A DNA stretch of 64,000 nt. It comes from Promethearchaeota archaeon (GTDB lineage Archaea > Asgardarchaeota > Lokiarchaeia > Sigyniarchaeales > SOKP01). Below, one piece after another: positions 10,682 through 22,659 of this stretch (positions are counted from its first letter, which is position 1; every line of letters begins with the position of its first letter). The notes below the pieces were generated by a model. The model searched no databases and was not told the DNA's origin. It saw only the letters and a program-made list of their open reading frames with translations. The stretch covers positions 480,001 through 544,000 of the forward strand of contig JAHPZA010000010.1 of assembly GCA_019058445.1 (NCBI GenBank), given 5' to 3'. The position numbers were made by a program, and so were the translations under genes.

Positions 10682-10900
10682 CTATTTATATTTAATAGAA
10701 AGTAAAAGATCATTCTTAGTAATTTTCTTTCTGTTCGCATGCATGGTAAAGGCTCGAGCTTGTTCAGTTAATCCAGTTGCTGTTTTTTCAAGATGATCAA
10801 TTAGCAGATTTACTGCGTTTCGAGCGACGATTGACGCGCCTTGTTGTTTCATAAGCCTTCGAATTGGGCTCCATGCGAATGCATGTTTCTTTTTAGCCAT
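10682..10900 (-). CDS. Archaeal histone
   Basis: PIRRLMK..GA..V...A, HANRKKITKND histone-fold signature; GGAGG SD upstream. Confidence 0.93.
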   Translation of the reverse strand: MAKKKHAFAWSPIRRLMKQQGASIVARNAVNLLIDHLEKTATGLTEQARAFTMHANRKKITKNDLLLSIKYK

Positions 10901-11603: not shown

Positions 11604-12224
11604 ATGGCACAACAAATTATGGTTCCAGGTGCGTGTGGAGTAGCAATAAAGTGTAAAGATGGAGTTGTTCTTGGAAATGATCGAAGAGCGACTTGGGGGT
11701 ATACTGTTACGAATAAATCTACAAGAAAGGTATTTAAAATAACAGACCACATAGGACTCACAGCATACGGATTAATTGGGGACTTTCAGTTATTAGTTAA
11801 AATTTTAAGAGCTCAAGCGAATCTATATGAATTAGATGCAGGGGAAAGAATTTCCACTAAGAGTATGGGAAAATTGGTTTCTAATTACCTCTACTCCAGA
11901 AAAATGTACCCCTTATATACAAACTTAGTTATCGCTGGAATGGAAATAGATGGTATCCCTTCCCTATATACTTTGGATGCCATAGGTTCTTTAATGCCTG
12001 ATGATTATGGCACTGCCGGAACCGGGATGCTATTATCAATTGGAATTTTAGAAGCGGAATATAAGCCTGATATAACTGTTGCGGAGGGTGAAAAATTGGT
12101 GGAAAAGACAATCAGAAATTCAATAACGAGGGATGCGATGAGCGGAAATGGTATAGACATTTTGACTATTACTAAAGATGGTGCCAAAGAAAAGTATATC
12201 GATATTAACGAATTAGGAGAATAA
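11604..12224 (+). CDS. psmB: Proteasome beta subunit, non-catalytic type
   Basis: DGVVLG.DRRAT, RKVF.I.DHIG, G..GDFQ, RDAMSG; the G-T1-T motif reads G-A-C. Confidence 0.92.
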   Translation: MAQQIMVPGACGVAIKCKDGVVLGNDRRATWGYTVTNKSTRKVFKITDHIGLTAYGLIGDFQLLVKILRAQANLYELDAGERISTKSMGKLVSNYLYSRKMYPLYTNLVIAGMEIDGIPSLYTLDAIGSLMPDDYGTAGTGMLLSIGILEAEYKPDITVAEGEKLVEKTIRNSITRDAMSGNGIDILTITKDGAKEKYIDINELGE

Positions 12225-12283
12225 TTAGGTAATTCACTCTTTTTAATAATTAGGTTTAAAAAATTTCATTTTGATTTGGCTTT

Positions 12284-14371
12284 TTGAATGGTGCTTTTAA
12301 TTTGAGATTAATTAATAACAATTTTAACGATATTGAAGAAATAAACGGATTTTCGAAAGAAGAATTAATTGATATTAAAAGAAAACTAACAAAATTAAAC
12401 TTAGATAAAGCGGATCAAACAGAAATTGAAGGATATCTCTCTGAGAAATTTTCAAGTGAAATAATTGAGTTTTATTCTAATTATCTGAATGAAATAAAAA
12501 CCTTTATTTTTGAAAATCTATTATCGACAACGGATTCTCAAAATAGAATAAATTTTAATCACTTTCCTCTAAAATCTGGAATTAAAAATGAGATTAAAAA
12601 AATATATAATAATTTATTGAATTTAAAGGTAAATGCTCAAAATACGAAGAGATTTTTAAAGAATAGTGCTTTCCTTGATGAGTTGTTAATAACGATCCAA
12701 GATATCATGAAAGAATATCAGGATTTAACTTCTCAATTAAATGTTCCAGAAAATAGAGTTACGGATATTTATGATAATTATGCCTATATCTGGATTGAAA
12801 TTAATAAATTAAAAAATCAATACTTTAAAATCAATAACTTGACAGAAGATTTAACAAATTGGGATGAGTTCCAAGGGTTTTATGAATGTATTAGAAATAA
12901 TATCATCGAATCTACTAAAAAAAAAGAGCGCAAGAAAAAAAATTTCATCATAACTACCCATTTTAATGATATTTATTCATATTTCAGCAAGTTAAAAGGA
13001 GAAAATCCCGATATCTATACAGATTTAATCGCTTTCTTATACAATATAAATCTAATTGAGGAGTTTAAAGAAAAAATAGAGGATCTTGATGAATATGTAA
13101 ATATTCTTGATAGAAAGGAAATTAAAAATAGAATTAAATCTTTAATGAATCCAATAATTAAAAAGTTAATTGAGGATAAAATAAAAGGAACTTTAAACGA
13201 AATTATTGAATTAGATAAAACTTCCAGATTAGGAGATCAGAAAAAAGACATAAACATAAAGAGGGTTTTAGAACAGAAAATTGGTACGTATTTACCTCAA
13301 ATAATTGATTATTATTTAAAAGGATTAGAAAATAAGTATCAAGCTGCTATTAGTGATTTAAAGGGATATGATGAATTTAAAAATGTGGCAAAATTTTATT
13401 CTGAAAAAATAGATATTCTCAATTCTCAAGTTGAGGAAATAGAAAATTATTTTGCTAATTACACTTTAATTTTAAAACCTTATGAGGATATCATAAATAA
13501 ACATAAGAAAACTCTTTCGAATATAACTTCTGAAATTGAAAGAAGGAAAAATGAATATTTATTTTACCTCAAAACTATAAGAAAGGAAAGATTGAGGGAT
13601 AATATAAGAACATTTATTTTTGAGAAAATAACAGAAGTTAATACTTTAATGAGTAAATATCAAGATGAAACTTCACTGATTGTAAGGGAAGAATTTCCTC
13701 AGCTAAAAAAAATGCAAAATATTCTTAGTGAATACAAAGTAAATATTCAAAAAATAAAAGATGAAGTATATCAAAAAATAGATTCTTTTAAAGAAAAAGA
13801 CATTGATATCTATCAAATTATTAAGCAATGGGAGGATAATTTTACACTTAAAAAACAGCAATTAAGTTTTCTCCTGAGTCTGTTAATAAATAAATTGTTT
13901 AAAAGTTTTAAGGATATGATTGAAGAAGAAAAATTGTTATATGAGCACATTACTGATATTACTAATCAAAACGAGAATTATGATAATCTTCCCTTAAATT
14001 TCGCTATATCAAATCTTTTAGTTGACAAATTAACTGAAGATGAATTAGATGAAAGAATTAACGAGATTCACTCAAAAATTGAAAACCTCAATAAAGAAAT
14101 AGAACTTTACAGAGCAGAACTCTCCAATTTAAAAAGAACTTTAGCAAATAAGGTAAAGATCAGAGAGGGAATAACTAGTGATGATATCCAATGCGGTGTC
14201 TGCCGAAAAAAGTTTGATTTTTCGAAAGATAAAATAATAAAATGTCCGTTTTGCGGTGCTGTATTTCATTATTTATGCGTTGCGTCATGGCTCAGTAAAC
14301 ACAACGCTTGCCCTTCATGTCAGAATACTTTTCTTGATCCAAATGCAGGTATTTATTCTGATCAAGAATAA
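12284..14371 (+). CDS. Coiled-coil protein with C-terminal RING finger (C4HC3), putative E3 ligase
   Basis: C-terminal CGVC-x13-CPFC-x4-H-x2-C-x3-W-x6-CPSC preceded by a long helical/coiled-coil region. Confidence 0.85.
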   Translation: MNGAFNLRLINNNFNDIEEINGFSKEELIDIKRKLTKLNLDKADQTEIEGYLSEKFSSEIIEFYSNYLNEIKTFIFENLLSTTDSQNRINFNHFPLKSGIKNEIKKIYNNLLNLKVNAQNTKRFLKNSAFLDELLITIQDIMKEYQDLTSQLNVPENRVTDIYDNYAYIWIEINKLKNQYFKINNLTEDLTNWDEFQGFYECIRNNIIESTKKKERKKKNFIITTHFNDIYSYFSKLKGENPDIYTDLIAFLYNINLIEEFKEKIEDLDEYVNILDRKEIKNRIKSLMNPIIKKLIEDKIKGTLNEIIELDKTSRLGDQKKDINIKRVLEQKIGTYLPQIIDYYLKGLENKYQAAISDLKGYDEFKNVAKFYSEKIDILNSQVEEIENYFANYTLILKPYEDIINKHKKTLSNITSEIERRKNEYLFYLKTIRKERLRDNIRTFIFEKITEVNTLMSKYQDETSLIVREEFPQLKKMQNILSEYKVNIQKIKDEVYQKIDSFKEKDIDIYQIIKQWEDNFTLKKQQLSFLLSLLINKLFKSFKDMIEEEKLLYEHITDITNQNENYDNLPLNFAISNLLVDKLTEDELDERINEIHSKIENLNKEIELYRAELSNLKRTLANKVKIREGITSDDIQCGVCRKKFDFSKDKIIKCPFCGAVFHYLCVASWLSKHNACPSCQNTFLDPNAGIYSDQE

Positions 14372-14397
14372 GAACTAACTAAAATAAATCAAATAAA

Positions 14398-15588
14398 TCA
14401 ATATTTATATTTTGGAGGTGTTTTACTCTTAATATTATTATGAGGAGTTTTACTTTTAATATGATCTTTTTGTATTGCTTTAAATTTTTTTATCTCTGTG
14501 TCCAATCTCTTTTTTTCTTGCTGCAATTGCGCTTTCTCTTGATCTAATTTCTTTCTTTCGCGTTGTATATTCTTTTTTTCATTATTTATATTATTTTTTT
14601 CTTTTTCTATTCGATTTTTTTCACTCTCATTATAAGATTGAATTTTCTCTTTTTCATGTTGTAATCTTCTTAATTCATTTTTTAAACGTTCGATTTTATT
14701 CTCTAAATCTCGTGCCTTATTTTCTAATGAGCCTTTTCTTTTTTCTAATCCCGGGATTTTATTTCGTATATTTTTTACGAGAGCCTCCTCATTTTTTCTA
14801 TCTCTACCCAACGTCTGTTTTTCTCTGTTAATTTCATTTTTCAAGCTTTCTAACTCAATAGTTTTCTTTTTCATATCTTTTAATTTCTTATTGAGATCAT
14901 CGGTTTTTTTCCTAAGATTTTCTCTAGCATCTTTAAGTTTTTTCTTTTCGGCATTAATTAGAGCTTGGCTATTTATTACTTCTTTACGTATACTATCTAA
15001 TTCGTTTTTTAAACGGTTTCTATCATTTGAAAGGTGATCAATTTCAGTTGTTAAATTATCTACTTCTTTCTCTAGTTTAAATTTCTTGTTTTCCAGATCA
15101 TTTCCTCTTTTTTCTAACCCAGGGATTTTAGTTTTTATTTCTGTTAATTGCTTTCCTCTTTTTTGCTTTTCAAAATCCCAATCCTTTTTCTCATTATTAA
15201 TATCATCTCTTACCTTGTTTAACTCATCTCTTTGCTTATTAATTTCATTTATGATATTAGCATATTCCTGTTTCTTTCCTTGAATTTTTTTATTTCCATC
15301 ATTGATTATTTTTTTAATATTATCTAATTCGTTAGCTAATTGATCCTTTTCATAAATTAATTCCTTAATTTCATTTTCTCTTTCCTTTCTTTTTCTTTCT
15401 AAATCTTTAATCGCTTCTTGATATCCTTGTATTTTACTAACTATATTTTCCCATTCCCTACGTTCTTCTTCCAATTTTTGGCGCTCGAACTTAATTTTTT
15501 TGAGCAAAGTTTTATCAGCAGTTAATATTTCTTCTTTCTCAGGAGTTTTTTCTTGGATTTGATACTTAGGAGGTTTGTTATTCTTCAT
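14398..15588 (-). CDS. Long coiled-coil protein with internal duplication
   Basis: K/E-rich heptads; KIPGLEKR...LENK occurs twice; PPKY at both termini. Confidence 0.8.
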   Translation of the reverse strand: MKNNKPPKYQIQEKTPEKEEILTADKTLLKKIKFERQKLEEERREWENIVSKIQGYQEAIKDLERKRKERENEIKELIYEKDQLANELDNIKKIINDGNKKIQGKKQEYANIINEINKQRDELNKVRDDINNEKKDWDFEKQKRGKQLTEIKTKIPGLEKRGNDLENKKFKLEKEVDNLTTEIDHLSNDRNRLKNELDSIRKEVINSQALINAEKKKLKDARENLRKKTDDLNKKLKDMKKKTIELESLKNEINREKQTLGRDRKNEEALVKNIRNKIPGLEKRKGSLENKARDLENKIERLKNELRRLQHEKEKIQSYNESEKNRIEKEKNNINNEKKNIQRERKKLDQEKAQLQQEKKRLDTEIKKFKAIQKDHIKSKTPHNNIKSKTPPKYKY

Positions 15589-15797
15589 TTGTTTTTATTC
15601 CTTAAAGATATATTTATTAATATAAATTCTAATTTATTATATCAAGGTACTCGATATATTTATAAAAGATACAGTCAAAACTAAATAATTATAATAAATG
15701 ACTTTATTTATATAGTCGAGCTCTTATTATTTATATACTAGTATAAATATAAATAGGTATTTTATAGCTAAAATAAAGAAAAAAAAGGTTGATTATT

Positions 15798-16139
15798 ATG
15801 GGTTTTGATGATGAATTTGATGAGGATTTAGGAGAACCTGAGGAAAAGACCCCTATGAAGTCTAAAACTCCATCGACTCCCCCAGCAGGGGGAAAGAAGA
15901 TGAATCTCTACTTTACATCTACAATTGGACCTGGTGAGAAGCGACAGAAATTATTAGTTGATGACGGTAATACCGTCGGTGCTGTTAAACAGACAATTGG
16001 CAATATTTTTGGATTAGATCCAGCAGATTTTCATTTATCTTCGGGAGGAGTTACAATGGATGATAGCTCTCCTTTAAGCTCATATAATGTAAATGATGGC
16101 GATGAAGTACTTTTAATACCAGCAAGTACTGCTGGTTAG
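15798..16139 (+). CDS. Ubiquitin-like protein with acidic/Pro-rich N-terminal extension, C-terminus -STAG
   Basis: Beta-grasp pattern (TVGAVKQTIG..FG.....HL...G..MDD...LSSYNVNDGDEVLLI) ending PASTAG-stop; first gene of the E1-E2-JAMM cluster. ATG 15798 preferred to TTG 15789. Confidence 0.9.
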   Translation: MGFDDEFDEDLGEPEEKTPMKSKTPSTPPAGGKKMNLYFTSTIGPGEKRQKLLVDDGNTVGAVKQTIGNIFGLDPADFHLSSGGVTMDDSSPLSSYNVNDGDEVLLIPASTAG

Positions 16140-16186
16140 TTTAGTTATGAAAATTAGATTAATGATATCTAATAAAAAACTCTACA

Positions 16187-16201
16187 TTTTTTTTTATTTT
16201 T
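16187..16201 (+). terminator. Oligo-T tract after the Ubl gene
   Basis: T9-A-T5 run, typical of archaeal intrinsic termination. A TATA-like TTTTATATATATAAAA follows at 16224-16239, before E1. Confidence 0.4.
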
Positions 16202-16256
16202 AAATATATTTTTAAATTAAGATTTTTATATATATAAAAGGTTAAGATAAGATTAG

Positions 16257-17489
16257 GTGGAAGATTTGGAAGAGGATTCTAATTTTTTTAGTAAAGAATT
16301 AACACCAGACGAGAGAGATCTGTATGATCGTCAGTTTAGATTGGAAGGATGGGATCAAAAACTAATTAAAAATTCACGAGTATTGATAGCGGGGGTAGGA
16401 GGATTAGGTTGTGAAATTGCTAAGAATTTGGCTATGTTGGGAGTGGGTCATCTTGACTTAGTAGATTTAGATATAATAGAACATTCGAATTTGAATCGAC
16501 AAATCCTCTTTACTGAGGCAAAAATGGGTGAGGCAAAAGCTGTAGTTGCCGCGAGAAAATTAACACAAATTAATCCAAACATTACAATTAAAGGTTATCA
16601 CAGTTCATTAGAAAGGCTCGATCCTGCGATTTATAAAGCAGCTGATGTTATTATCGGAGGTTTAGATTCGATGAATGCGAGACTTAATTTAAATGCTCAG
16701 TGTGTACGATTTAAAAAACCGCTTATCGATGGAGGTGTTGCGGGGTATAATGGACATATCTATACAGTTTACCCTTACGAAAACGCCTGTTATGAATGTG
16801 ATCCGCTTCCAGTTGCAGATATGGATGAAATGGCCGCATGCACTGTAGTGGGTGTCCCTAGAAAACGGGTTCACTGTATTTTTAAGGCAAATATGCTTTT
16901 CAAGGATGAAAATGATAGAGATCCTGATCCAAAAAATATAGAAGATGTAAATTTAATTCAAAATGAAGCAAACAAATTTGCTCAGAAACATAATTTTTTA
17001 CCGCTATTTTCAAAAGCAGATATTATTAAAATCATAGATAGACATGATCCTGGGATAATTACGATAAATTCAATTATATCTGCACTTCAATCGCATGAAA
17101 CCATCAAGGTTTTGCATTGGTTGAAAGGAAATAACGCGTTGGGAGAGCCTATCAAGTCCTATATTATTTTTAATGGAATGACCATGAAATTTTTCCCTAT
17201 TGAAAAGAAAAGAAATTTACAATGTCTCCAATGTGGTGACGAGGTACGGAGGGTAGTAATTGAAATTAATCGCAATACCAGTTGTGAGAAAATTGTAAAT
17301 AAGTTAGAAAAGATGGGATTTAATAAAAATCCGGAAATGGAGCCAACTTTAACAATAATGGACTTCAATAATATAAATATAATAGATACTGATCTTACGC
17401 CTATTGAAAATGATTTAAGAGATTTAGAATTGATAACAGCCGTAGGTTTTGATGGGGGAGAAATTTTTATAACTCTAAAAATCGTATAA
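16257..17489 (+). CDS. Ubiquitin-like activating enzyme E1 (UBA2/UBA3-like)
   Basis: YDRQ, GVGGLG, DLDIIEHSNLNRQ, CYEC and CLQC Zn sites, catalytic ACTVVGVPR...HC, PGIITIN, C-terminal ~80-aa UFD-like domain. Confidence 0.93.
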   Translation: MEDLEEDSNFFSKELTPDERDLYDRQFRLEGWDQKLIKNSRVLIAGVGGLGCEIAKNLAMLGVGHLDLVDLDIIEHSNLNRQILFTEAKMGEAKAVVAARKLTQINPNITIKGYHSSLERLDPAIYKAADVIIGGLDSMNARLNLNAQCVRFKKPLIDGGVAGYNGHIYTVYPYENACYECDPLPVADMDEMAACTVVGVPRKRVHCIFKANMLFKDENDRDPDPKNIEDVNLIQNEANKFAQKHNFLPLFSKADIIKIIDRHDPGIITINSIISALQSHETIKVLHWLKGNNALGEPIKSYIIFNGMTMKFFPIEKKRNLQCLQCGDEVRRVVIEINRNTSCEKIVNKLEKMGFNKNPEMEPTLTIMDFNNINIIDTDLTPIENDLRDLELITAVGFDGGEIFITLKIV

Positions 17490-17591
17490 ATTTTATTTAA
17501 ATTTCTTGTTTTAATTTAATTTATAATTGGTTATTATTATATTATATTCATAAGAAAATTAATAAAAAAATCAGAGGTTTGATAAAATAAA

Positions 17592-18119
17592 ATGAGTTTA
17601 AGAAGTAGTCGAGTTTCTCAGGATTTTGCTTCGCTTAAAAAGTTACTTAAGGATGGAACCATCGCTCAACTAAAACCTTTTAATCCAAAACAGAAAAGTA
17701 TTGATCATTTAGCTGTCCTGCTTAAAGGTCCTAAGGGGACCGCTTATCAAGGAGGAGTATTTAAACTGGAAATCAAATATCCCCCTACGTATCCCAGACA
17801 TCCACCATTCGTTCGCTTACATACTCCTATTTGGCATCCTAATTTTTGGCCAAAACCTTCTGAGTATCCTGGTCAGCGAAATATTTGTCTAGCGCTCGTA
17901 GATCCGAGTTTAGTAGGGAAAAAAGGAGGTTGGAGCCCATCAAAAACAATTGTCACTGTAATACAAGCAATTACAGCAATGTTTAATACGCGAGGTTTAT
18001 TCATTAATCCTACTGATGTATTTAACAAAAAAGCAGCTCTCGAAATGATGAATGATCGCAAAAATTTTGAGAAAAAGGTAAAGCATTTAGTTAAGAAGTA
18101 TGCTAATCAAAAATGGTGA
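17592..18119 (+). CDS. Ubiquitin-conjugating enzyme E2 (UBC)
   Basis: GPKGTAYQGGVF, YP..PP.V...TPIWHPN, catalytic ICL, WSP. Confidence 0.95.
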   Translation: MSLRSSRVSQDFASLKKLLKDGTIAQLKPFNPKQKSIDHLAVLLKGPKGTAYQGGVFKLEIKYPPTYPRHPPFVRLHTPIWHPNFWPKPSEYPGQRNICLALVDPSLVGKKGGWSPSKTIVTVIQAITAMFNTRGLFINPTDVFNKKAALEMMNDRKNFEKKVKHLVKKYANQKW

Positions 18120-18940
18120 ATAGAAAAATGGAAAATGAAAAATCTGATGAAGATGCCATTAAAGAGGCCATAAAAAAGAGAATTAAAAATAAAATTAAGA
18201 AAGAACTATTGGAAGAAATCTATAATGAATTAAAGTTGGAGGAAGATGAATTAGCCGATGAGATTTCTTCATCACTTAGTAAAAATACAAAGAAAATTCC
18301 TACAGAATTACCCCTTTCCACAGAGATAATAAATGATATTAAAACTGAAGAAGTTGCGCCAAAAGATTTAGAAGATGATAAAACAGTAACTATATCAGTG
18401 AAGGCTATTCTCAAAATTGCCAGCCATGCACTGAAATATGCAAATCCAAATATTTCAAAAGATAAATGGGTTGAAGTCATTGGACTTTTGGCAGGTAAGC
18501 AGTATAATTACGGGCCTAAACTCCATATTGAAGATGCTTACCCTATGGGGCACGGCACTGCTGTTTATGCGGAAATTAAAGATTATAAAAATTTTGTAAG
18601 AGCGTTCAATGATATTAAGAAAAAGAAATTATTTATCTGTGGATGGTATCACTCTCATCCGTCATACGGAACATGGATGAGTGATGAAGATATTGGGACT
18701 CAAGCACGATATCAGAAGTTATGGGATAAAGCAATCGCACTTGTGGTTGATCCTTATCAAATTGATGGGACTTCATTAGGTTTTGATATTTTCAGAGCTA
18801 ATTTAAACACGAAAAAGTGGTTTTCTATACCATTTAGCGTCGAGGGTTCGCTTGATGTAAGATTATTACCTGAAATTTTAAATTTTATGAATCCTATAAT
18901 CGAGGGAAAGGCAGCATATCTCGAATATGATGAAGATTGA
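18113..18940 (+). CDS. JAMM/MPN+ metalloprotease (CSN5/Rpn11-like)
   Basis: EVIGLL.G, GWYHSHP.YG.WMS..D..TQ, ALVVDP; ~90-aa charged N-terminal extension. Confidence 0.94.
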   Translation: MVNRKMENEKSDEDAIKEAIKKRIKNKIKKELLEEIYNELKLEEDELADEISSSLSKNTKKIPTELPLSTEIINDIKTEEVAPKDLEDDKTVTISVKAILKIASHALKYANPNISKDKWVEVIGLLAGKQYNYGPKLHIEDAYPMGHGTAVYAEIKDYKNFVRAFNDIKKKKLFICGWYHSHPSYGTWMSDEDIGTQARYQKLWDKAIALVVDPYQIDGTSLGFDIFRANLNTKKWFSIPFSVEGSLDVRLLPEILNFMNPIIEGKAAYLEYDED

Positions 18941-19084
18941 TTTTAAAGTAGCAACTAGGAATTTGGTGAGCATTTTATCGCGGTTAAAAAACAGAATCTT
19001 ATCATCTTATTAATTTTTTTTGGTATCGGTGTATTTCACGGTGTATTAATTTCAAATTCATTAAATAATTTTTTTTCTTGGTTA

Positions 19085-20155
19085 TTGGTTGGATGTTGGA
19101 TTCTCTTTACAATTAAATTTTTTGAAAAAAGAAAAGAATATAATGAATATAATTCACAAAAAAATACATCATTCTTTCTCTTAGGTCCTTTAAGTGTGGG
19201 CCTATTTTATAACTTATGGGGTTATTTTACAGGATTATGGGGTGAAAATCTTTTCGAAAATACATTACCATTTTTATATATAAGCCTCTGGACTCTTATA
19301 TTTGCTTTTCCATACTTAATATACGGTTTATATACAATTCGAGCATGTTATACAAAATTTCATGTAGTATATCTCATAAAAACTAGATCTCTAAGTGCCC
19401 GCAAATTCGGAACATTTTATACGCTTTTACTTCTATTTGGAATTTTATTTTATATTGTATTTTTCAATATTATTCTGAATTATTTTTATATCATTGTAGA
19501 GCAAGTTTATTTCTATTTTGATATAATGCTCGTGGTAATATTTTTAACCTTAATTTATATATTCATAAGACACGGAATCTTTGGTTCAGCACGCTCTATG
19601 CCTGAGATTTCTCAAGATTATATAAACCGCCGAAGACAGCGCTTAAGAACAATGACCACTACTCCAGTTAGGGCTGCTCCAAGTAGACCTAAAACTACAA
19701 GAACCACATCACGACCAGCTCCAAGTAGACCTAAAACTACAAGAACCACATCACGACCAGCTTCAAATAGACCTAAAACTACAAAGACCGTTTCACGACC
19801 AGCTCCAAGTAAGCCAAAAACTACAAGAACAACAGCTCAAAAACCAAAAGTCGCTGCAAGTGCTGTCTTTGAGAAATATAAACCAAAAGCAGGAATTCTT
19901 TCATTAGAGGACTTTAAGTGTATATTTTGCTTTCAACTTCCTAAACTTCCTGCTGATACTCATCGTGGAATTGTTTTATGTCCAAATTGTAAACACCCAG
20001 CTCATGCGGATGAATTTAAAGAATGGACTCATGATTCTCCTCTCTGTTCTCGGTGTGATGCCCCAATTCCACCAAGTTTTAGGAGAAATCCCGTGATTAT
20101 CTCTGTCAAACAGTATGTTGATGTAATTAACGAGTATAAAAGAAGAAAGACATAG
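19085..20155 (+). CDS. Polytopic membrane protein with Ser/Thr/Arg/Pro repeat linker and C-terminal RING-like finger
   Basis: Several TM helices, (APSRPKTTRTTSRP)x4, then CIFC-x16-CPNC-x4-H-x2-E-x3-W-x6-CSRC. The frame is open upstream to 18959. Confidence 0.8.
   Translation: MVGCWILFTIKFFEKRKEYNEYNSQKNTSFFLLGPLSVGLFYNLWGYFTGLWGENLFENTLPFLYISLWTLIFAFPYLIYGLYTIRACYTKFHVVYLIKTRSLSARKFGTFYTLLLLFGILFYIVFFNIILNYFYIIVEQVYFYFDIMLVVIFLTLIYIFIRHGIFGSARSMPEISQDYINRRRQRLRTMTTTPVRAAPSRPKTTRTTSRPAPSRPKTTRTTSRPASNRPKTTKTVSRPAPSKPKTTRTTAQKPKVAASAVFEKYKPKAGILSLEDFKCIFCFQLPKLPADTHRGIVLCPNCKHPAHADEFKEWTHDSPLCSRCDAPIPPSFRRNPVIISVKQYVDVINEYKRRKT
19676..19834 (+). repeat. 42-bp intragenic tandem repeat, ~3.8 copies
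   Basis: Units start at 19676, 19718, 19760 and 19802 (GCTCCAAGTAGACCTAAAACTACAAGAACCACATCACGACCA); the first two are identical. Confidence 0.95.
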
Positions 20156-20185
20156 TATAACAGTATTTTTTTTTATGTTTTATAA

Positions 20186-20935
20186 TCATTTAAGTCTTAA
20201 TTTATTTAGATTTTTACGGGCTTTCGAATTATTTGGGTCAATTCTTAAGGCTTTTTTATAACAATTGATTGCTTCTTCTAAAAAATTTAATTTTTCCAGT
20301 GCATATCCTTTATTATTCCAAGCCATGGAATTCTCTGGTTCTATTTTTATAGTATTTTCAAAGCATTTCACGGTTTGTTCATATTGACTTAAATCTGCAT
20401 GTAATAGTCCTTTTTCAAATAGAGCATGTGAATTGTCAGGATTAATTTTTAAAGCTTCATTGTAAAAAAAAATCATCGTTTTCTGCCAGTCAGAATCTTC
20501 ATTTGTGCAATCCCACATCAGAACTTCAGCTGGATGTTTATCTTTCCACCATTCAACATAATGCTTACAAGAACAAAATAATTTGATTTCCTTAGCATCT
20601 TTTATCTCTATACCATTTTCAAAGTCAGTATCACAAATAAAGCAAGTTCCATCTGTACCTACTAGAGGCATGATATTATTATGCCAAGGTAACCGATAAT
20701 CCCCTTCAGAATAAATTCCATAAATGTACATAGGTCCTTGAGCGATTCTACACCTTGTGTACCAATTGGCGCAATAAGTATATCCAGAATTTATAATATG
20801 TACGTTTCTTATGGGGCAATAATTTTCAATCCAGGGTTCTTTACGTTCATCTTTATCTAATTTTCGTTTAAAAATGCAGGTTGCACAGCAATCTGAACCA
20901 CCATTTGGCATTGAATTAACCTTCTTGTACTGCAA
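20186..20935 (-). CDS. Cys-rich N-terminal domain plus C-terminal TPR repeats
   Basis: MPNGGSDCCATC start with several Cys pairs; TPR consensus AWNNKG.AL..L...EEAI.CY.KAL.IDP. Confidence 0.82.
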   Translation of the reverse strand: MQYKKVNSMPNGGSDCCATCIFKRKLDKDERKEPWIENYCPIRNVHIINSGYTYCANWYTRCRIAQGPMYIYGIYSEGDYRLPWHNNIMPLVGTDGTCFICDTDFENGIEIKDAKEIKLFCSCKHYVEWWKDKHPAEVLMWDCTNEDSDWQKTMIFFYNEALKINPDNSHALFEKGLLHADLSQYEQTVKCFENTIKIEPENSMAWNNKGYALEKLNFLEEAINCYKKALRIDPNNSKARKNLNKLRLK

Positions 20936-20956
20936 TTTTAAATTTGAAGTATTAAA

Positions 20957-21616
20957 TCATATTTGAGGAGGGAAAATAATAATATTCACAGCTAAAAATA
21001 TACCAAAACCAATCATAAATAATCCGCAGCCAATTAAGACATATTTATAGATATTTGGATTTAATGACTTCCCACCAAGATATACAAATATTGAAAGAGG
21101 AACATAAAATATAAAATCGCCTAATATATGGCCAAAATAAAACAGTAGCAAACCTATTGGATTTTCAAAGCTAATTCCAAAATTAATCATGAAACTTAAA
21201 CCGATAACAGCCCACCAAAAAGTCCAAAAAGGATTAGAAAGGCTTACGACAATACCCCCGATGAAGCTATTTCCCTTAAAACCTTTAATATCTGCTTCTT
21301 CAATTGATTGAAAATCAAACTTAAGCGGATTATTAATGGTATCTCTAATCACAAAACCTCCAAAGATAACTAACAATATACCTCCTACAACACCAATAAT
21401 TGTTAAAATTAAAAGGTCTCTTAAAAATAAAGAAGCACCTAATAACAATAGACATATCATTCCAAATTCTAAGGTAGCATGGCCCAAAATAATAAAAATT
21501 CCGGATAAATATCCTCTTTTTTGAACGGACTTGTAAATAGTAAATGTTAAAACTGGTCCAGGAGATAATGCTCCCGTTAATGCTATCAGAAAGGAAAAAA
21601 TAAAAATTTCAATCAT
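20957..21616 (-). CDS. LysE-family translocator
   Basis: GALSPGP, GH..LE, G..VSLSNP.W..WW; hydrophobic throughout. Confidence 0.88.
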   Translation of the reverse strand: MIEIFIFSFLIALTGALSPGPVLTFTIYKSVQKRGYLSGIFIILGHATLEFGMICLLLLGASLFLRDLLILTIIGVVGGILLVIFGGFVIRDTINNPLKFDFQSIEEADIKGFKGNSFIGGIVVSLSNPFWTFWWAVIGLSFMINFGISFENPIGLLLFYFGHILGDFIFYVPLSIFVYLGGKSLNPNIYKYVLIGCGLFMIGFGIFLAVNIIIFPPQI

Positions 21617-21768
21617 ATTAAAAAAGAGAGTTTTTATGCAAATAAATCTGAAATTTGATAAAAACTTTATATGTATAAATTCAAAATAAAAACAAATATA
21701 AGGTAAAATTAAGGTTAATTTCTTATAAGTCGGTTTAAGAAAATAATTAGACTATTATTTATAAAAAA

Positions 21769-22659
21769 ATGTCCGAAGAATCTCTTGATAATGATGATAA
21801 TTCCAAGTCGGAATTCGTATCGAGACTATACAATTGTCCGAAGTGCAGATTGATGCATACAGTAAAGCTCCCTAAAGATATCGCCCAAAATAAACCTGTT
21901 TTTCCTTTTCCATACGTATTTTTACATTCTTCTGAGGAAGGACTTGATGATATCCTTACTGTTCTTTATATTGATGTAGAACTTCATATACGTGCTGTTG
22001 AAGTTATGGAAGTTGACGAAACCAATATTTTTTCTGAAGATCTTACTAAACAAATTACTGAAAAGTTAATGGATAAGATTGTGAGCTTAGAAGAAGAAAA
22101 TTTACAGTTAAAAGACCTAATTCGCAAAATGGAGTTAGTTAAAGTAAGTGGATTAGAGGGAAAGAATCCAAGAGTTATGAGCATTCCGAAATTGGAATAT
22201 GAATCTGAGATAAAGGAAAAACCAATCACTTTGGAGCCTCAAATTCCAAAACTAAAGGAGATAAATGAAAAAAAGCCATTATTTGATTTACAGGAAATAC
22301 CCATGCCTGAGATTGAGTCTAAAGAACCCATGCCTGAGATTGAGTCTAAAGAACCCATACCCGAGATTAGATCTAAACAACCCATCCTAGAGTCTGAAGA
22401 CTTTTTCGATATAATTAAAGTGTATATTACATCTACGGTTGGACCAGGAGAAAAAAAACAGGATTTACGGGTAAAATTAAGTAATAAAGTCATTGATATT
22501 AAAGATACAATCGGAAAGATCTTTGGTTTAACACCCTCAAATTTCCATCTTTCCTCGGGAGGAATTACATTTGATGAACAGCTGCTCCTAAAGGATTATT
22601 ATATTGAAGAAGGAGACGAAATTCTTATTATTCCTTCAAGCACAGCAGGATTTTTTTAA
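21769..22659 (+). CDS. Zn-finger + coiled coil + repeat linker + C-terminal Ubl (ends -STAG-FF)
   Basis: N-terminal CPKC...H..PFPYVFLH; the C-terminal ~80 aa closely matches the Ubl at 15798 (TSTxGPGEK, IFGL.P..FHLSSGG, GDE.L.IP.STAG). Confidence 0.88.
   Translation: MSEESLDNDDNSKSEFVSRLYNCPKCRLMHTVKLPKDIAQNKPVFPFPYVFLHSSEEGLDDILTVLYIDVELHIRAVEVMEVDETNIFSEDLTKQITEKLMDKIVSLEEENLQLKDLIRKMELVKVSGLEGKNPRVMSIPKLEYESEIKEKPITLEPQIPKLKEINEKKPLFDLQEIPMPEIESKEPMPEIESKEPIPEIRSKQPILESEDFFDIIKVYITSTVGPGEKKQDLRVKLSNKVIDIKDTIGKIFGLTPSNFHLSSGGITFDEQLLLKDYYIEEGDEILIIPSSTAGFF
22300..22398 (+). repeat. 27-bp intragenic tandem repeat (PMPEIESKE)
   Basis: CCCATGCCTGAGATTGAGTCTAAAGAA identical at 22300 and 22327; degenerate copies at 22354 and 22381. 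Confidence 0.92.

What the first reader, a model, noticed from the sequence alone, without database searches (positions are those of the whole stretch)
11604..22659. Complete ubiquitin-type conjugation system built on a single-glycine (-STAG) modifier, with soluble and membrane RING partners next to a proteasome subunit
Seen in sequence: Ubl, E1, E2, JAMM and a TM-RING-like protein are co-oriented (15798-20155). They are flanked by psmB plus a coiled-coil C4HC3 RING (11604-14371) and by a second Ubl-bearing protein (21769-22659). The modifier ends IPASTAG, not the LRGG/di-Gly of ubiquitin, NEDD8, SUMO or SAMPs. Established: Ub-E1-E2-RING-JAMM operons exist in Caldiarchaeum and Asgard archaea. 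Single-Gly modifiers (UFM1, ATG8, ATG12) in eukaryotes use non-canonical E1s (UBA5, ATG7). Inference: a mono-Gly modifier is paired here with a canonical UBA2/UBA3-style E1, an HPN-type E2 and RING E3s, a combination that could be a distinct modifier pathway.
Basis: partly seen in the sequence, partly recalled or inferred. Interest (0 to 1): 0.9.

Follow-up and report, generated by a model that had tools for sequence, protein, structure and literature searches.

The report
Asgard Ala-Gly ubiquitin-like conjugation operon
This Asgard archaeon carries a complete ubiquitin-style protein-tagging gene cluster whose tag always ends in Ala-Gly rather than Gly-Gly and runs alongside a separate Gly-Gly ubiquitin, so several parallel tagging pathways probably existed before eukaryotes.

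Summary
Window 15798-20155 encodes a Ubl ending IPASTAG-stop, a canonical Cys-bearing E1, an HPN/Cys E2, an intact JAMM protease and a membrane protein with a C-terminal RING-type domain. A divergent coiled-coil gene is a conserved neighbour.

The operon is syntenic in Asgard loci down to about 43% E1 identity. The tail IP-x-S-T-A-G is essentially invariant. The Ubl was found in 192 of 400 genomes sampled from the phylum.

It is not UFM1. The fold and profile match ubiquitin, best of all Caldiarchaeum Ub. A separate UBA5-like/JAMM/Ufm1~UFC1 locus lies elsewhere in this genome.

It is also not "the" Asgard ubiquitin. This genome and four distant Asgard genomes also encode a di-Gly Ub. The operon's E2s form their own clade (99/98), apart from the other E2s of the same genomes.

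Tandem two- and three-unit precursors found elsewhere require cleavage exactly after Ala-Gly.

Most likely this is a dedicated second conjugation pathway with a membrane E3. All biochemistry is inferred. I found no paper describing the tail.

This scan had already reached the same core conclusion on other genomes (e1-3051191, e1-3191408, e1-2299499). I rate it a new variant of a known kind, of moderate to high interest.

The parts
15798..16139 (+). Ubl modifier, 113 aa. It has a disordered N-terminal tail (acidic FDDEFDEDL motif, KSKTP motif, GGKK), a ubiquitin-fold core and the tail LLIPASTAG followed by the stop codon.
   Evidence: PF00240 5.9e-7. The AF2 core has block-mean pLDDT 88-94, and residues 1-28 are mostly below 50. 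The Foldseek top hits are Caldiarchaeum Ub 6fno/6fnn/6fj7 at 30-31% identity. In the family alignment P108, S110, A112 and G113 are invariant.
16257..17489 (+). E1 activating enzyme, 410 aa, canonical UBA2/UBA3-like single chain. It has a catalytic-type Cys in AACTVVGVPRK, two CxxC pairs and a C-terminal domain of about 80 aa (presumed UFD).
   Evidence: ThiF 1.3e-60. phmmer against PDB gives Uba1 138 bits, UBA2 136, UBA3 116, MoeB 110 and UBA5 62, and the Cys aligns with GCTIRNTP of UBA2 and PLCTLRSFP of Uba1. The Cys and CxxC motifs are conserved in all full-length orthologues.
17592..18119 (+). E2 conjugating enzyme, 175 aa, with an HPN motif and a Cys in NICLAL. Its stop overlaps the JAMM start by 7 nt.
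   Evidence: UQ_con 1e-24. H82, P83, N84 and C99 are invariant in 13 orthologues. Operon E2s form one split at 99/98.
18113..18940 (+). JAMM/MPN+ (Rpn11-like) metalloprotease, 275 aa, with a charged N-terminal extension. It is the presumed maturase and deconjugase.
   Evidence: JAB 1.2e-13. E...GWYHSHP-x7-S-x2-D is conserved in nearly all of 13 orthologues (one reads GWAHSHP).
19085..20155 (+). Membrane protein, 356 aa. It has at least 3 strong TM segments, a basic Thr/Arg/Pro repeat linker and a C-terminal RING-type domain with the pattern C-x2-C-x16-C-x2-C-x4-H-x2-E-x3-W-x6-C-x2-C. It is the presumed E3.
   Evidence: TM segments and linker. C12, C15, C32, C35, H40, E43, W47, C54 and C57 of the domain are invariant. 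AF2 pLDDT is 91. All top 50 Foldseek hits are RING/U-box domains at E 2e-3 to 0.1. The predicted complex with the E2 scores 0.69 against a best control of 0.00.
14398..15588 (-). Divergently transcribed coiled-coil protein, 396 aa. Its termini carry PPKYQIxEKTP and [KR][ST]KTP motifs like the Ubl tail. It is a conserved neighbour whose role is unknown (candidate substrate or adaptor).
   Evidence: It lies next to the Ubl in 11 of the 13 related loci that cover the Ubl's 5' side, and elsewhere in the locus in two more (L035, L036). The terminal motifs are conserved. It is the only ORF in the genome with two SKTP motifs.
12284..14371 (+). Soluble coiled-coil protein, 695 aa, with a C-terminal C4HC3-spaced RING. 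It is a candidate second E3.
   Evidence: zf-RING_2 9.7e-8, residues 636-680. It is present in 55/60 genomes of the family. It lies within about 1-4 kb of the STAG Ubl in genera g1, g4, g6 and part of g13, and elsewhere in g7, g10, g11 and g12.
11604..12224 (+). Proteasome beta-type paralogue lacking the Thr1 nucleophile (VPG-ACGVAI instead of G-TTTVG). It forms a conserved gene pair with the coiled-coil RING.
   Evidence: PF00227 1.6e-49. Comparison with the genome's two canonical beta subunits. Orthologues at 71-87% identity are adjacent to the ccRING gene in nearly all genomes sampled. The Ala start is conserved in 3 other genomes.
21769..22659 (+). 296-aa protein with an N-terminal CxxC region, a coiled coil, PEIESKE repeats and a C-terminal paralogous Ubl ending IPSSTAG-FF.
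   Evidence: PF00240 6.8e-5. It is 56% identical to the operon Ubl over 81 aa. An orthologue is present in L029. Many 226-570 aa proteins in other organisms carry the Ubl at their extreme C-terminus.

Best explanation
This is a dedicated ubiquitin-like conjugation pathway of Asgard archaea. It runs in parallel with a separate di-Gly ubiquitin rather than replacing it. The proposed mechanism has five steps. (1) The modifier is either made ready-to-use, as here where the stop codon follows Ala-Gly, or it is released by the operon's Rpn11-like JAMM protease from capped, tandem or fused precursors. (2) The single-chain E1, presumably a homodimer, adenylates Gly113 and takes the modifier onto its conserved Cys. 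(3) The modifier passes to Cys99 of the dedicated HPN-type E2. (4) The polytopic membrane protein recruits E2~Ubl through its C-terminal RING-type domain, which carries Glu in place of the sixth Zn ligand, and directs transfer to lysines of membrane-proximal targets. In some genera the neighbouring soluble coiled-coil RING may be a second E3. (5) The JAMM enzyme also reverses the modification. Shown by computation: gene content, catalytic motifs, conservation, synteny, fold, and a separate E2 clade. Inferred: every chemical step, the role of the membrane RING as E3, and the substrates. The conserved KSKTP motif is shared by the Ubl tail and both ends of the divergent coiled-coil protein. It may be an acceptor or docking motif, but that is speculative.
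For: The gene set and motifs are complete. The core order divergent coiled-coil/Ubl/E1/E2/JAMM/TM-RING recurs in the related loci that span it. The enzyme block is conserved down to 43% E1 identity in five further Asgard families. In one locus (L080) the genes are reordered. The tail is invariant. Of 120 close clusters, 87 (72%) end at the Gly and the rest add 1-4 residues. Of 80 named genome records, 76 read PASTAG, 3 PSSTAG and 1 PTSTAG, and 63 end at the Gly. P108, S110, A112 and G113 are invariant in alignment A1. Nearly all diverse 50%-identity representatives end IP-x-S-x-AG plus 0-6 residues. Tandem precursors P0139 (3 units) and P0140 (2 units) start each next unit directly after the Gly, and P0139 occurs in two independent assemblies. 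That requires cleavage after Ala-Gly. The pathway looks separate for five reasons. This genome also has a di-Gly Ub (QAGG-I), a second canonical E1 (528 aa) with an E2 (171 aa), a JAB-E1-E2-like locus and a UBA5-like/JAMM/Ufm1~UFC1 locus. The di-Gly Ub has a different phyletic pattern. Four distant genomes with the operon also encode ...GG ubiquitins. Operon E2s form one split at 99/98. The STAG Ubl and the di-Gly Ub give no BLASTP hit to each other. For the E3, the RING fold is supported. Complex prediction scored 0.69 against a best control of 0.00; that mark was reached by 58 of 80 solved complexes and 2 of 110 mismatched pairs, runs agreed in at least 94% of contacts, and the partner pLDDT was at least 88. 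The interface is the canonical one, with E2 helix 1 and the loops at 108-118 meeting the RING Zn loops and Trp47. E2-RING complexes are well represented among solved structures, so this pass shows likeness, not binding. A paralogous RING of the same Glu type follows the second free STAG Ubl on contig C6.
Against: There is no biochemical or expression evidence. All E1-family members I know of that sit closest to this E1 act on di-Gly substrates (my own knowledge), so whether this E1 accepts an Ala-Gly tail is untested. The RING domain lacks one canonical Zn ligand, and its sequence match to RING models is weak (0.03). In this genome the di-Gly Ub has no adjacent E1 or E2, so I cannot exclude that the operon E1 also charges it. 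The genome's own 171-aa E2 groups weakly (83/41) beside the operon clade rather than with the other non-operon E2 clade.
Confidence: 0.78

Rival explanations
1. This is simply the already known Asgard ubiquitin system. On this view the STAG protein is the lineage's ubiquitin orthologue with a drifted tail, or the operon enzymes serve both it and the di-Gly Ub, so there is no separate pathway.
For: The gene content equals the published Caldiarchaeum and Asgard Ub operons (PMC5654768; bioRxiv 10.1101/2023.07.25.550441). The Ubl's closest solved structure is Caldiarchaeum Ub. The di-Gly Ub of this genome has no adjacent E1 or E2. Hatano et al. describe discrete Ub and ESCRT regions in Lokiarchaeota, and the Ub region may be this operon.
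Against: A di-Gly Ub coexists with the STAG Ubl in this genome and in four distant genomes. The two have different phyletic patterns. A separate canonical E1/E2 pair exists in this genome. Operon E2s form a distinct clade at 99/98. The tail is invariant rather than drifting.
Confidence: 0.1
2. It is the Asgard UFM1 system. The tail (IP, four residues, a single Gly, sometimes a 2-residue cap) mirrors UFM1's IIPRDRVG-SC.
For: Ufm1 homologues are reported in nine Asgard clades (PMC12962969).
Against: PF03671 (Ufm1) does not hit this Ubl anywhere in the genome. UFM1 is absent from the 60 best profile hits listed against PDB sequences and from the top 50 structural hits. The E1 scores 138 bits to Uba1 but 62 bits to UBA5. 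The E2 matches UQ_con and keeps HPN. A separate locus, C6:731.6-734.6 kb, encodes a small E1, a JAMM and a Ubl (...IIDRGIVG) fused to a UFC1-like domain.
Confidence: 0.03
3. It is an antiviral Ubl system of the bacterial Bil / CBASS Cap2-Cap3 kind.
For: It has the same kinds of parts (Ubl, E1, E2, JAMM). The E1 adenylation core hits PADLOC 'E1-E2' models at 1.8e-17.
Against: That hit is 61 bits, against 205 bits to ThiF, and it covers only the Rossmann core. The Ubl, E2, JAMM and RING protein hit no defence model. The system is near-universal in its family (119/134) with stable chromosomal synteny, unlike patchy defence islands.
Confidence: 0.03
4. The Ubl is not conjugated through its C-terminus. 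It would instead be a non-covalent Ubl or a sulfur carrier.
For: The tail is atypical, and ThiS gives a faint hit on a tandem relative.
Against: The Ala-Gly end is invariant and in most genes lies directly at the stop. Tandem precursors exist. A dedicated E2, a JAMM protease and a RING protein are always linked. The E1 shows no Pfam domain other than ThiF.
Confidence: 0.04

Closest known systems
Caldiarchaeum subterraneum ubiquitin operon (Rpn11, Ub, E2, E1, small RING finger protein), reconstituted in vitro (PMC5654768, PMC6043591)
   Same: It has an operon-encoded Ub-fold modifier, a single-chain E1, a UBC-type E2, a RING E3 and an Rpn11-like JAMM that matures the modifier. The CsUb structures are the best structural match at 30-31% identity.
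   Different: CsUb ends in di-Gly followed by a 9-residue propeptide. Here the end is an invariant Ala-Gly with no cap or a 1-6 residue cap. The Ubl carries a conserved disordered N-terminal tail with acidic and KSKTP motifs. The conserved E3 candidate is a polytopic membrane protein whose RING has Glu at ligand 6. A divergent coiled-coil gene is part of the conserved neighbourhood. Tandem multi-unit precursors exist.
ESCRT-linked di-Gly ubiquitin cascade of Asgard archaea (Helarchaeota Ub GG-SPKN with E1, E2 and RING E3, bioRxiv 10.1101/2023.07.25.550441; Hatano et al. 2022, PMC9192718)
   Same: It is in the same phylum and uses the same enzyme classes. Both systems coexist in this genome and in the four distant genomes checked.
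   Different: The modifier family differs (no BLASTP similarity). The E2 clade differs. The phyletic pattern differs. The STAG operon is not next to the Vps28 hits in this genome.
Eukaryotic UFM1 / UBA5 / UFC1 pathway
   Same: It has a single C-terminal Gly five residues after an Ile-Pro, and some precursors carry a 2-residue cap.
   Different: There is no sequence or fold preference for UFM1. The E1 and E2 are canonical-type, not UBA5/UFC1. A separate UFC1-containing locus exists in this genome.
Eukaryotic membrane RING ligases (Hrd1, MARCH/Doa10 type)
   Same: A polytopic membrane domain is combined with a cytosolic RING-type domain. The HRD1 RING is among the top structural hits.
   Different: The RING is C-terminal, follows a basic Thr/Arg/Pro repeat and has Glu in place of the sixth Zn ligand. 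No homology of the membrane part was detected.

Membership tests
Archaeal eukaryote-type ubiquitin operon (Caldiarchaeum/Asgard type) | Ubiquitin-fold modifier of the PF00240 family | tested here: met
   PF00240 5.9e-7. The top structural hits are CsUb, Ub and ISG15.
Archaeal eukaryote-type ubiquitin operon (Caldiarchaeum/Asgard type) | C-terminal di-glycine exposed by processing | tested here: not met
   The tail is an invariant ...STAG, and the penultimate residue is Ala in all family members examined.
Archaeal eukaryote-type ubiquitin operon (Caldiarchaeum/Asgard type) | E1 with an adenylation domain and a catalytic Cys at the canonical position | tested here: met
   The alignment to UBA2 and Uba1 places the Cys of AACTVVG opposite their Cys-containing motifs. 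The Cys is invariant in orthologues.
Archaeal eukaryote-type ubiquitin operon (Caldiarchaeum/Asgard type) | UBC-fold E2 with HPN and an active-site Cys | tested here: met
   UQ_con 1e-24. H82, P83, N84 and C99 are invariant.
Archaeal eukaryote-type ubiquitin operon (Caldiarchaeum/Asgard type) | JAMM/MPN+ protease with E...HxH-x7-S-x2-D | tested here: met
   The motif is intact in all 13 orthologues.
Archaeal eukaryote-type ubiquitin operon (Caldiarchaeum/Asgard type) | ATP-dependent E1~ and E2~ thioesters and isopeptide conjugates | not testable with these tools
   This needs biochemistry.
RING finger E3 (membrane protein 19085-20155) | Eight Cys/His Zn ligands in cross-brace spacing | tested here: not met
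   Seven ligands are conserved. Position 6 is an invariant Glu.
RING finger E3 (membrane protein 19085-20155) | RING/U-box fold | tested here: met
   AF2 pLDDT is 91. All 50 best Foldseek hits are RING/U-box domains, although the E-values are only 2e-3 to 0.1.
RING finger E3 (membrane protein 19085-20155) | Binds its E2 through the Zn loops and the central helix | tested here: inconclusive
   Complex prediction scored 0.69 against a best control of 0.00 with a canonical interface. The pass may reflect likeness to solved E2-RING complexes.
UFM1 system | Modifier matches the Ufm1 family | tested here: not met
   PF03671 gives no hit on this gene. UFM1 is absent from the listed profile hits and the top 50 fold hits.
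UFM1 system | UBA5-type E1 and UFC1-type E2 | tested here: not met
   The E1 scores 62 bits to UBA5 against 138 bits to Uba1. PF08694 hits only C6:734 kb, not this E2.
SAMP/Urm1-type modifier | MoeB-like E1 acting without an E2, with a di-Gly tail | tested here: not met
   A dedicated E2, a RING protein and a JAMM are present. The tail is Ala-Gly. The SAMP E1 model scores 109 bits against a cut-off of 450.
Bacterial Bil / CBASS Cap2-Cap3 defence Ubl systems | Components match the defence-system profiles | tested here: not met
   Only the E1 Rossmann core matches, at 61 bits. The Ubl, E2, JAMM and RING protein have no hits.

The most novel reading that the evidence does not exclude
The Ala-Gly Ubl system is an ancient, independent Ubl lineage with its own E1, E2, membrane E3 and maturase. 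It would have diverged from the di-Gly ubiquitin system before the Asgard classes split. It would work as a membrane-protein tagging pathway (ERAD- or MARCH-like) fed by polyubiquitin-style tandem precursors. If so, the multiplicity of Ubl pathways, a hallmark of eukaryotes, began in archaea. This lineage might also be sister to one of the eukaryotic non-ubiquitin canonical-E1 pathways (NEDD8 or SUMO).
Probability: 0.22. Interest if true: 0.85.

Novelty: new variant of a known kind. Interest (0 to 1): 0.6.

Why it matters
Eukaryotes run several parallel ubiquitin-like pathways, each with its own E1 and E2, and when that multiplicity arose is an open question. This locus, together with the rest of its genome, shows one Asgard archaeon carrying at least four Ubl/E1/E2-type gene sets. 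One of them is a widespread, tightly conserved set built on a non-di-Gly modifier with a membrane RING partner. The proteins are small and soluble apart from the E3, so the pathway could be reconstituted directly.

There is also a practical consequence. The last 49 residues of the modifier contain no Lys or Arg. Standard tryptic di-Gly-remnant proteomics would therefore be blind to its conjugates.

Tried and rejected
UFM1 reading. I tested it with the Pfam Ufm1 and UFC1 models on the whole genome, with a family profile against PDB sequences, and with a fold search. I rejected it for this operon.

Defence-system reading. I tested it with PADLOC and rejected it.

Expression. The look-up of sequencing runs (kind rna) over 15700-20200 listed no RNA holder.

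ESCRT linkage. The Vps28 hits lie on other contigs. The ESCRT-II Pfam search found nothing anywhere, including the control genomes, so it is uninformative.

Literature. Six full-text searches and five papers read found no description of an Ala-Gly or STAG Asgard modifier. Spang et al. 2015 could not be read under the id I tried. The supplements of PMC12962969 are not held, so I could not see which proteins that paper calls Asgard Ufm1.

E2 tree. The first tree was distorted by a long-branch E2-like protein and lacked two E2s that my motif filter missed. I rebuilt it without the long branch and with both added.

Fused forms. The word-based 'longer' search found few of them. The exhaustive profile search found many.

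Eukaryotic placement. I could not place the E1 and E2 relative to named eukaryotic families by phylogeny, because no tool returned named eukaryotic sequences. Bit scores to PDB chains are the only proxy I have.

NCBIfam has no family for the Ubl, the E2 or the fusion protein.

Full report
OBSERVATION

The window is about 30% G+C and equals G000:C10:480001-544000 of a 4.6-Mb, 10-contig genome that is 92.6% complete. Named relatives are Promethearchaeota/Lokiarchaeia MAGs.

These are:
- a proteasome beta-type gene (11604-12224);
- a 695-aa coiled-coil protein ending in a RING (12284-14371);
- a Ubl (15798-16139);
- a ThiF-type E1 (16257-17489);
- a UQ_con E2 (17592-18119), overlapping the next gene by 7 nt;
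- a JAB protease (18113-18940);
- a membrane protein with a Cys/His-rich C-terminus (19085-20155);
- a 296-aa protein with a C-terminal Ubl (21769-22659).

The Ubl ends ...LLIPASTAG directly before the stop codon. Homologues begin MGFD/MSFD, so the ATG at 15798 is the start.

WHAT THE PARTS ARE

The E1 is canonical in type. Against solved structures it scores highest with Uba1 (138 bits), UBA2 (136) and UBA3 (116). MoeB scores 110 and UBA5 only 62. The alignments put the Cys of its AACTVVGVPRK motif opposite the Cys-containing motifs GCTIRNTP of UBA2 and PLCTLRSFP of Uba1, which from my own knowledge hold the catalytic cysteines. That Cys and two CxxC pairs are conserved in all full-length orthologues.

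The E2 keeps HPN and Cys99 invariantly. The JAMM motif E...HSHP-x7-S-x2-D is intact in 13 orthologues.

The Ubl model has a confident beta-grasp core (block-mean pLDDT 88-94) and a disordered N-terminal region of about 30 residues. Its best structural matches are Caldiarchaeum subterraneum ubiquitin (30-31% identity), ubiquitin variants and ISG15. A family profile hits ubiquitin, the 8hm1-3 'putative ubiquitin' entries, the Caldiarchaeum Ub chain, ubiquilin and ISG15.

The membrane protein has at least three strong hydrophobic segments and a basic Thr/Arg/Pro repeat linker. Its C-terminal domain has the invariant pattern C-x2-C-x(13-16)-C-x2-C-x4-H-x2-E-x3-W-...-C-x2-C. This is the register of the neighbouring soluble C4HC3 RING, but with an invariant Glu at ligand 6. 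The domain folds confidently (pLDDT 91). All 50 best structural matches are RING or U-box domains, though with modest E-values.

A complex prediction of this domain with the operon E2 and two Zn scored 0.69 against a best control of 0.00. That mark was reached by 58 of 80 solved complexes and 2 of 110 mismatched pairs. The runs agreed in at least 94% of contacts and the partner pLDDT was at least 88. The interface is the textbook one: E2 helix 1 and the loops at 108-118 against the two Zn loops and Trp47. Many E2-RING complexes are solved, so this shows likeness rather than binding.

CONSERVATION

The Ubl has 839 homologous clusters at 90% identity, and those that carry a name are Asgard. In 80 named genome records the tail is PASTAG in 76, PSSTAG in 3 and PTSTAG in 1. 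Sixty-three end at the Gly and 17 add 1-3 residues. In alignment A1, P108, S110, A112 and G113 are invariant. The N-terminal acidic motif and the KSKTP motif are broadly conserved.

The order divergent coiled-coil/Ubl/E1/E2/JAMM/TM-RING recurs in the related loci that span it. The enzyme block is kept down to about 43% E1 identity, with the genes reordered in one locus.

In a 400-genome sample of the phylum the Ubl was found in 192. The counts are 119/134 in the window's family and 24/31, 9/12, 18/22, 2/2 and 4/5 in five other families. None was found in several further families, including groups of 12, 19 and 89 genomes. Submitters' labels on carrier records include Promethearchaeia, Hermod-, Hod-, Odin- and Thorarchaeota, Sifarchaeum and Sigynarchaeum.

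An exhaustive profile search found 2092 representatives at E <= 1e-3. Among the best 150, nearly all single-domain members that match through the tail end IP-x-S-x-AG plus 0-6 residues.

Two representatives are tandem precursors. P0139 has three complete units and P0140 has two. Each unit has the acidic motif, KSKTP, the Ubl and a STAG-type tail, and each next unit starts immediately after the Gly. P0139 is present in a JGI metagenome and, independently, in a Logan SRA assembly. As with polyubiquitin, this demands cleavage exactly after Ala-Gly. It also implies that the N-terminal tail is part of the mature modifier. Many proteins of 226-570 aa carry the Ubl at their extreme C-terminus, like the 296-aa protein in the window.

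A DISTINCT PATHWAY, NOT THE UBIQUITIN AND NOT UFM1

The same genome encodes:
- a free 74-aa Ub ending QAGG-I (C9:758 kb);
- a second canonical E1 (528 aa) with an E2 (171 aa) at C10:384-387 kb;
- a JAB/E1/E2-like set with a RING at C9:220 kb;
- at C6:731.6-734.6 kb, a small E1, a JAMM and a 270-aa protein whose N-terminal Ubl (...IIDRGIVG) is fused to a UFC1-like domain.

The last set is the natural candidate for the Asgard Ufm1 homologues reported in PMC12962969. I could not confirm this, because that paper's supplements are not held. Pfam's Ufm1 model does not hit the STAG Ubl.

The di-Gly Ub is about 90% conserved within the window's class. With that query it was not found in five of the more distant families that carry the STAG Ubl (f13, f15, f16, f17, f28). 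Those families have their own di-Gly ubiquitins, ending ...TRTTGG-FPN...ARTKGG-S...TRTEGG-NI and ...VRTEGG. Some of these have an E2 and a UEV-like gene nearby.

In a maximum-likelihood tree, the 14 operon-type E2s from six Asgard families form one split (99/98) on a long stem. They are separate from a clade of six non-operon E2s (100/99), which includes the two that lie near a di-Gly Ub, and from a third clade (100/99).

Within this genome, the STAG Ubl and the di-Gly Ub give no BLASTP hit to each other. The two E1s share 48% identity over the N-terminal 152 aligned residues and 27% over a second segment. The two E2s share 39%.

The operon is not next to the Vps28 hits. PADLOC gives only a generic E1-core match, and the system's near-universal presence in its family argues against a defence island.

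FLANKS

The divergent coiled-coil gene (14398-15588) is part of the conserved neighbourhood. Its termini keep PPKYQIxEKTP and [KR][ST]KTP motifs that echo the Ubl tail. It is the only ORF in the genome with two SKTP motifs; genome-wide there are 17 SKTP occurrences against 12 expected.

The soluble coiled-coil RING occurs in 55/60 genomes of the family. It lies within about 1-4 kb of the STAG Ubl in genera g1, g4, g6 and part of g13, but elsewhere in g7, g10, g11 and g12.

The psmB paralogue lacks Thr1: it reads VPG-ACGVAI where the genome's two other beta subunits read G-TTTVG. Its orthologues (71-87% identity) sit beside the ccRING gene in nearly all genomes sampled, wherever that pair lies. 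The Ala start is conserved in three other genomes. So 'next to a proteasome subunit' really means a conserved inactive-beta + RING gene pair that is linked to the operon in some genera only.

MECHANISM AND VERDICT

The best-supported reading is a dedicated conjugation pathway with these steps:
- JAMM maturation where it is needed;
- E1 adenylation and thioester formation at Gly113;
- transfer to E2 Cys99;
- a membrane RING-type E3, possibly joined by the soluble ccRING;
- JAMM-mediated reversal.

All chemistry is inferred. The kind of system is known: the Caldiarchaeum operon has been reconstituted (PMC5654768), and a Helarchaeota di-Gly cascade has been described (bioRxiv 10.1101/2023.07.25.550441). 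The following features were not found in the literature I could search:
- the invariant Ala-Gly tail on canonical-type enzymes;
- the conserved N-terminal tail;
- the tandem precursors;
- the Glu-variant membrane RING;
- coexistence with a di-Gly Ub.

Earlier follow-ups in this scan reached the same core conclusion on other genomes, so the family is not new to the scan.
- the four-system inventory of this genome, including the separate Ufm1~UFC1 locus;
- the phylum-wide distributions of both modifiers;
- the E2 clade test;
- the tandem precursors;
- the RING fold and E2 interface prediction;
- the conserved psmB-like/ccRING pair.

Noticed in passing
G000:C6:731631-734586 (L026:7631-10586, + strand): This locus is a separate UFM1-type system. 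It encodes a small ThiF E1 (275 aa), a JAMM protease (405 aa) and a 270-aa protein whose N-terminal Ubl ends ...FDIIDRGIVG and runs directly into a UFC1-like domain (PF08694, 5.7e-5). It is probably the Asgard Ufm1 homologue reported in PMC12962969, here fused to its E2.
   Followed up: partly
window 11604-14371, and the orthologous pairs: A proteasome beta paralogue lacks the Thr1 nucleophile (VPG-A[CV]GVA). It sits next to a 695-aa coiled-coil RING protein in nearly all genomes sampled from the family, whether or not the pair is near the Ubl operon. An inactive beta subunit paired with a RING E3 is unexplained.
   Followed up: partly
P0139 (L189:59-1177; also L190) and P0140, from other organisms: These are tandem poly-Ubl precursors with three and two complete units. 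Each unit includes its own acidic N-terminal tail, and the units are joined directly after the Ala-Gly, analogous to polyubiquitin genes.
   Followed up: partly
window 14398-15588 (-) and Ubl residues 17-27: The short motif [KR][ST]KTP is shared by the Ubl N-terminal tail and both termini of the divergent coiled-coil protein, and it is conserved across lineages. That protein is the only ORF in the genome with two SKTP motifs. The motif could be an acceptor or a docking site.
   Followed up: partly
G000:C6:372359-375265 (L023:8359-11301): This is a second STAG locus with four genes. One is a two-TM protein with a C-terminal Ubl ending IPSRIPQK (no Gly). Next is a wHTH regulator. Then comes a free Ubl ending STAG-YE. 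Last is a 222-aa protein with Thr/Arg repeats and a paralogous Glu-variant RING (58% identical to the operon's RING domain). No E1 or E2 is nearby.
   Followed up: partly
G000:C9:220391-225227 (L022:6391-11227): A third compact set has JAB (162 aa), E1 (292 aa) and an E2-like protein (193 aa, weak UQ_con match), with a 361-aa RING protein on the opposite strand. No Ubl was identified next to it.
   Followed up: no
G000:C10:379141-387082 (L020:3141-11082): The second canonical E1 (528 aa) and E2 (171 aa) flank a HAD hydrolase. They lie beside a 1653-aa protein with MIT domains and TPR repeats.
   Followed up: no
L180 and L182 (G067 and G033): The non-operon E2s fetched from these two distant genomes read HVN and HAN in place of the canonical HPN motif. 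The G067 copy lies about 5 kb from that genome's di-Gly Ub.
   Followed up: no
window 10682-10900 (-): A 72-aa ORF about 0.7 kb upstream of psmB looks histone-fold-like by eye. I did not run it against any family library.
   Followed up: no
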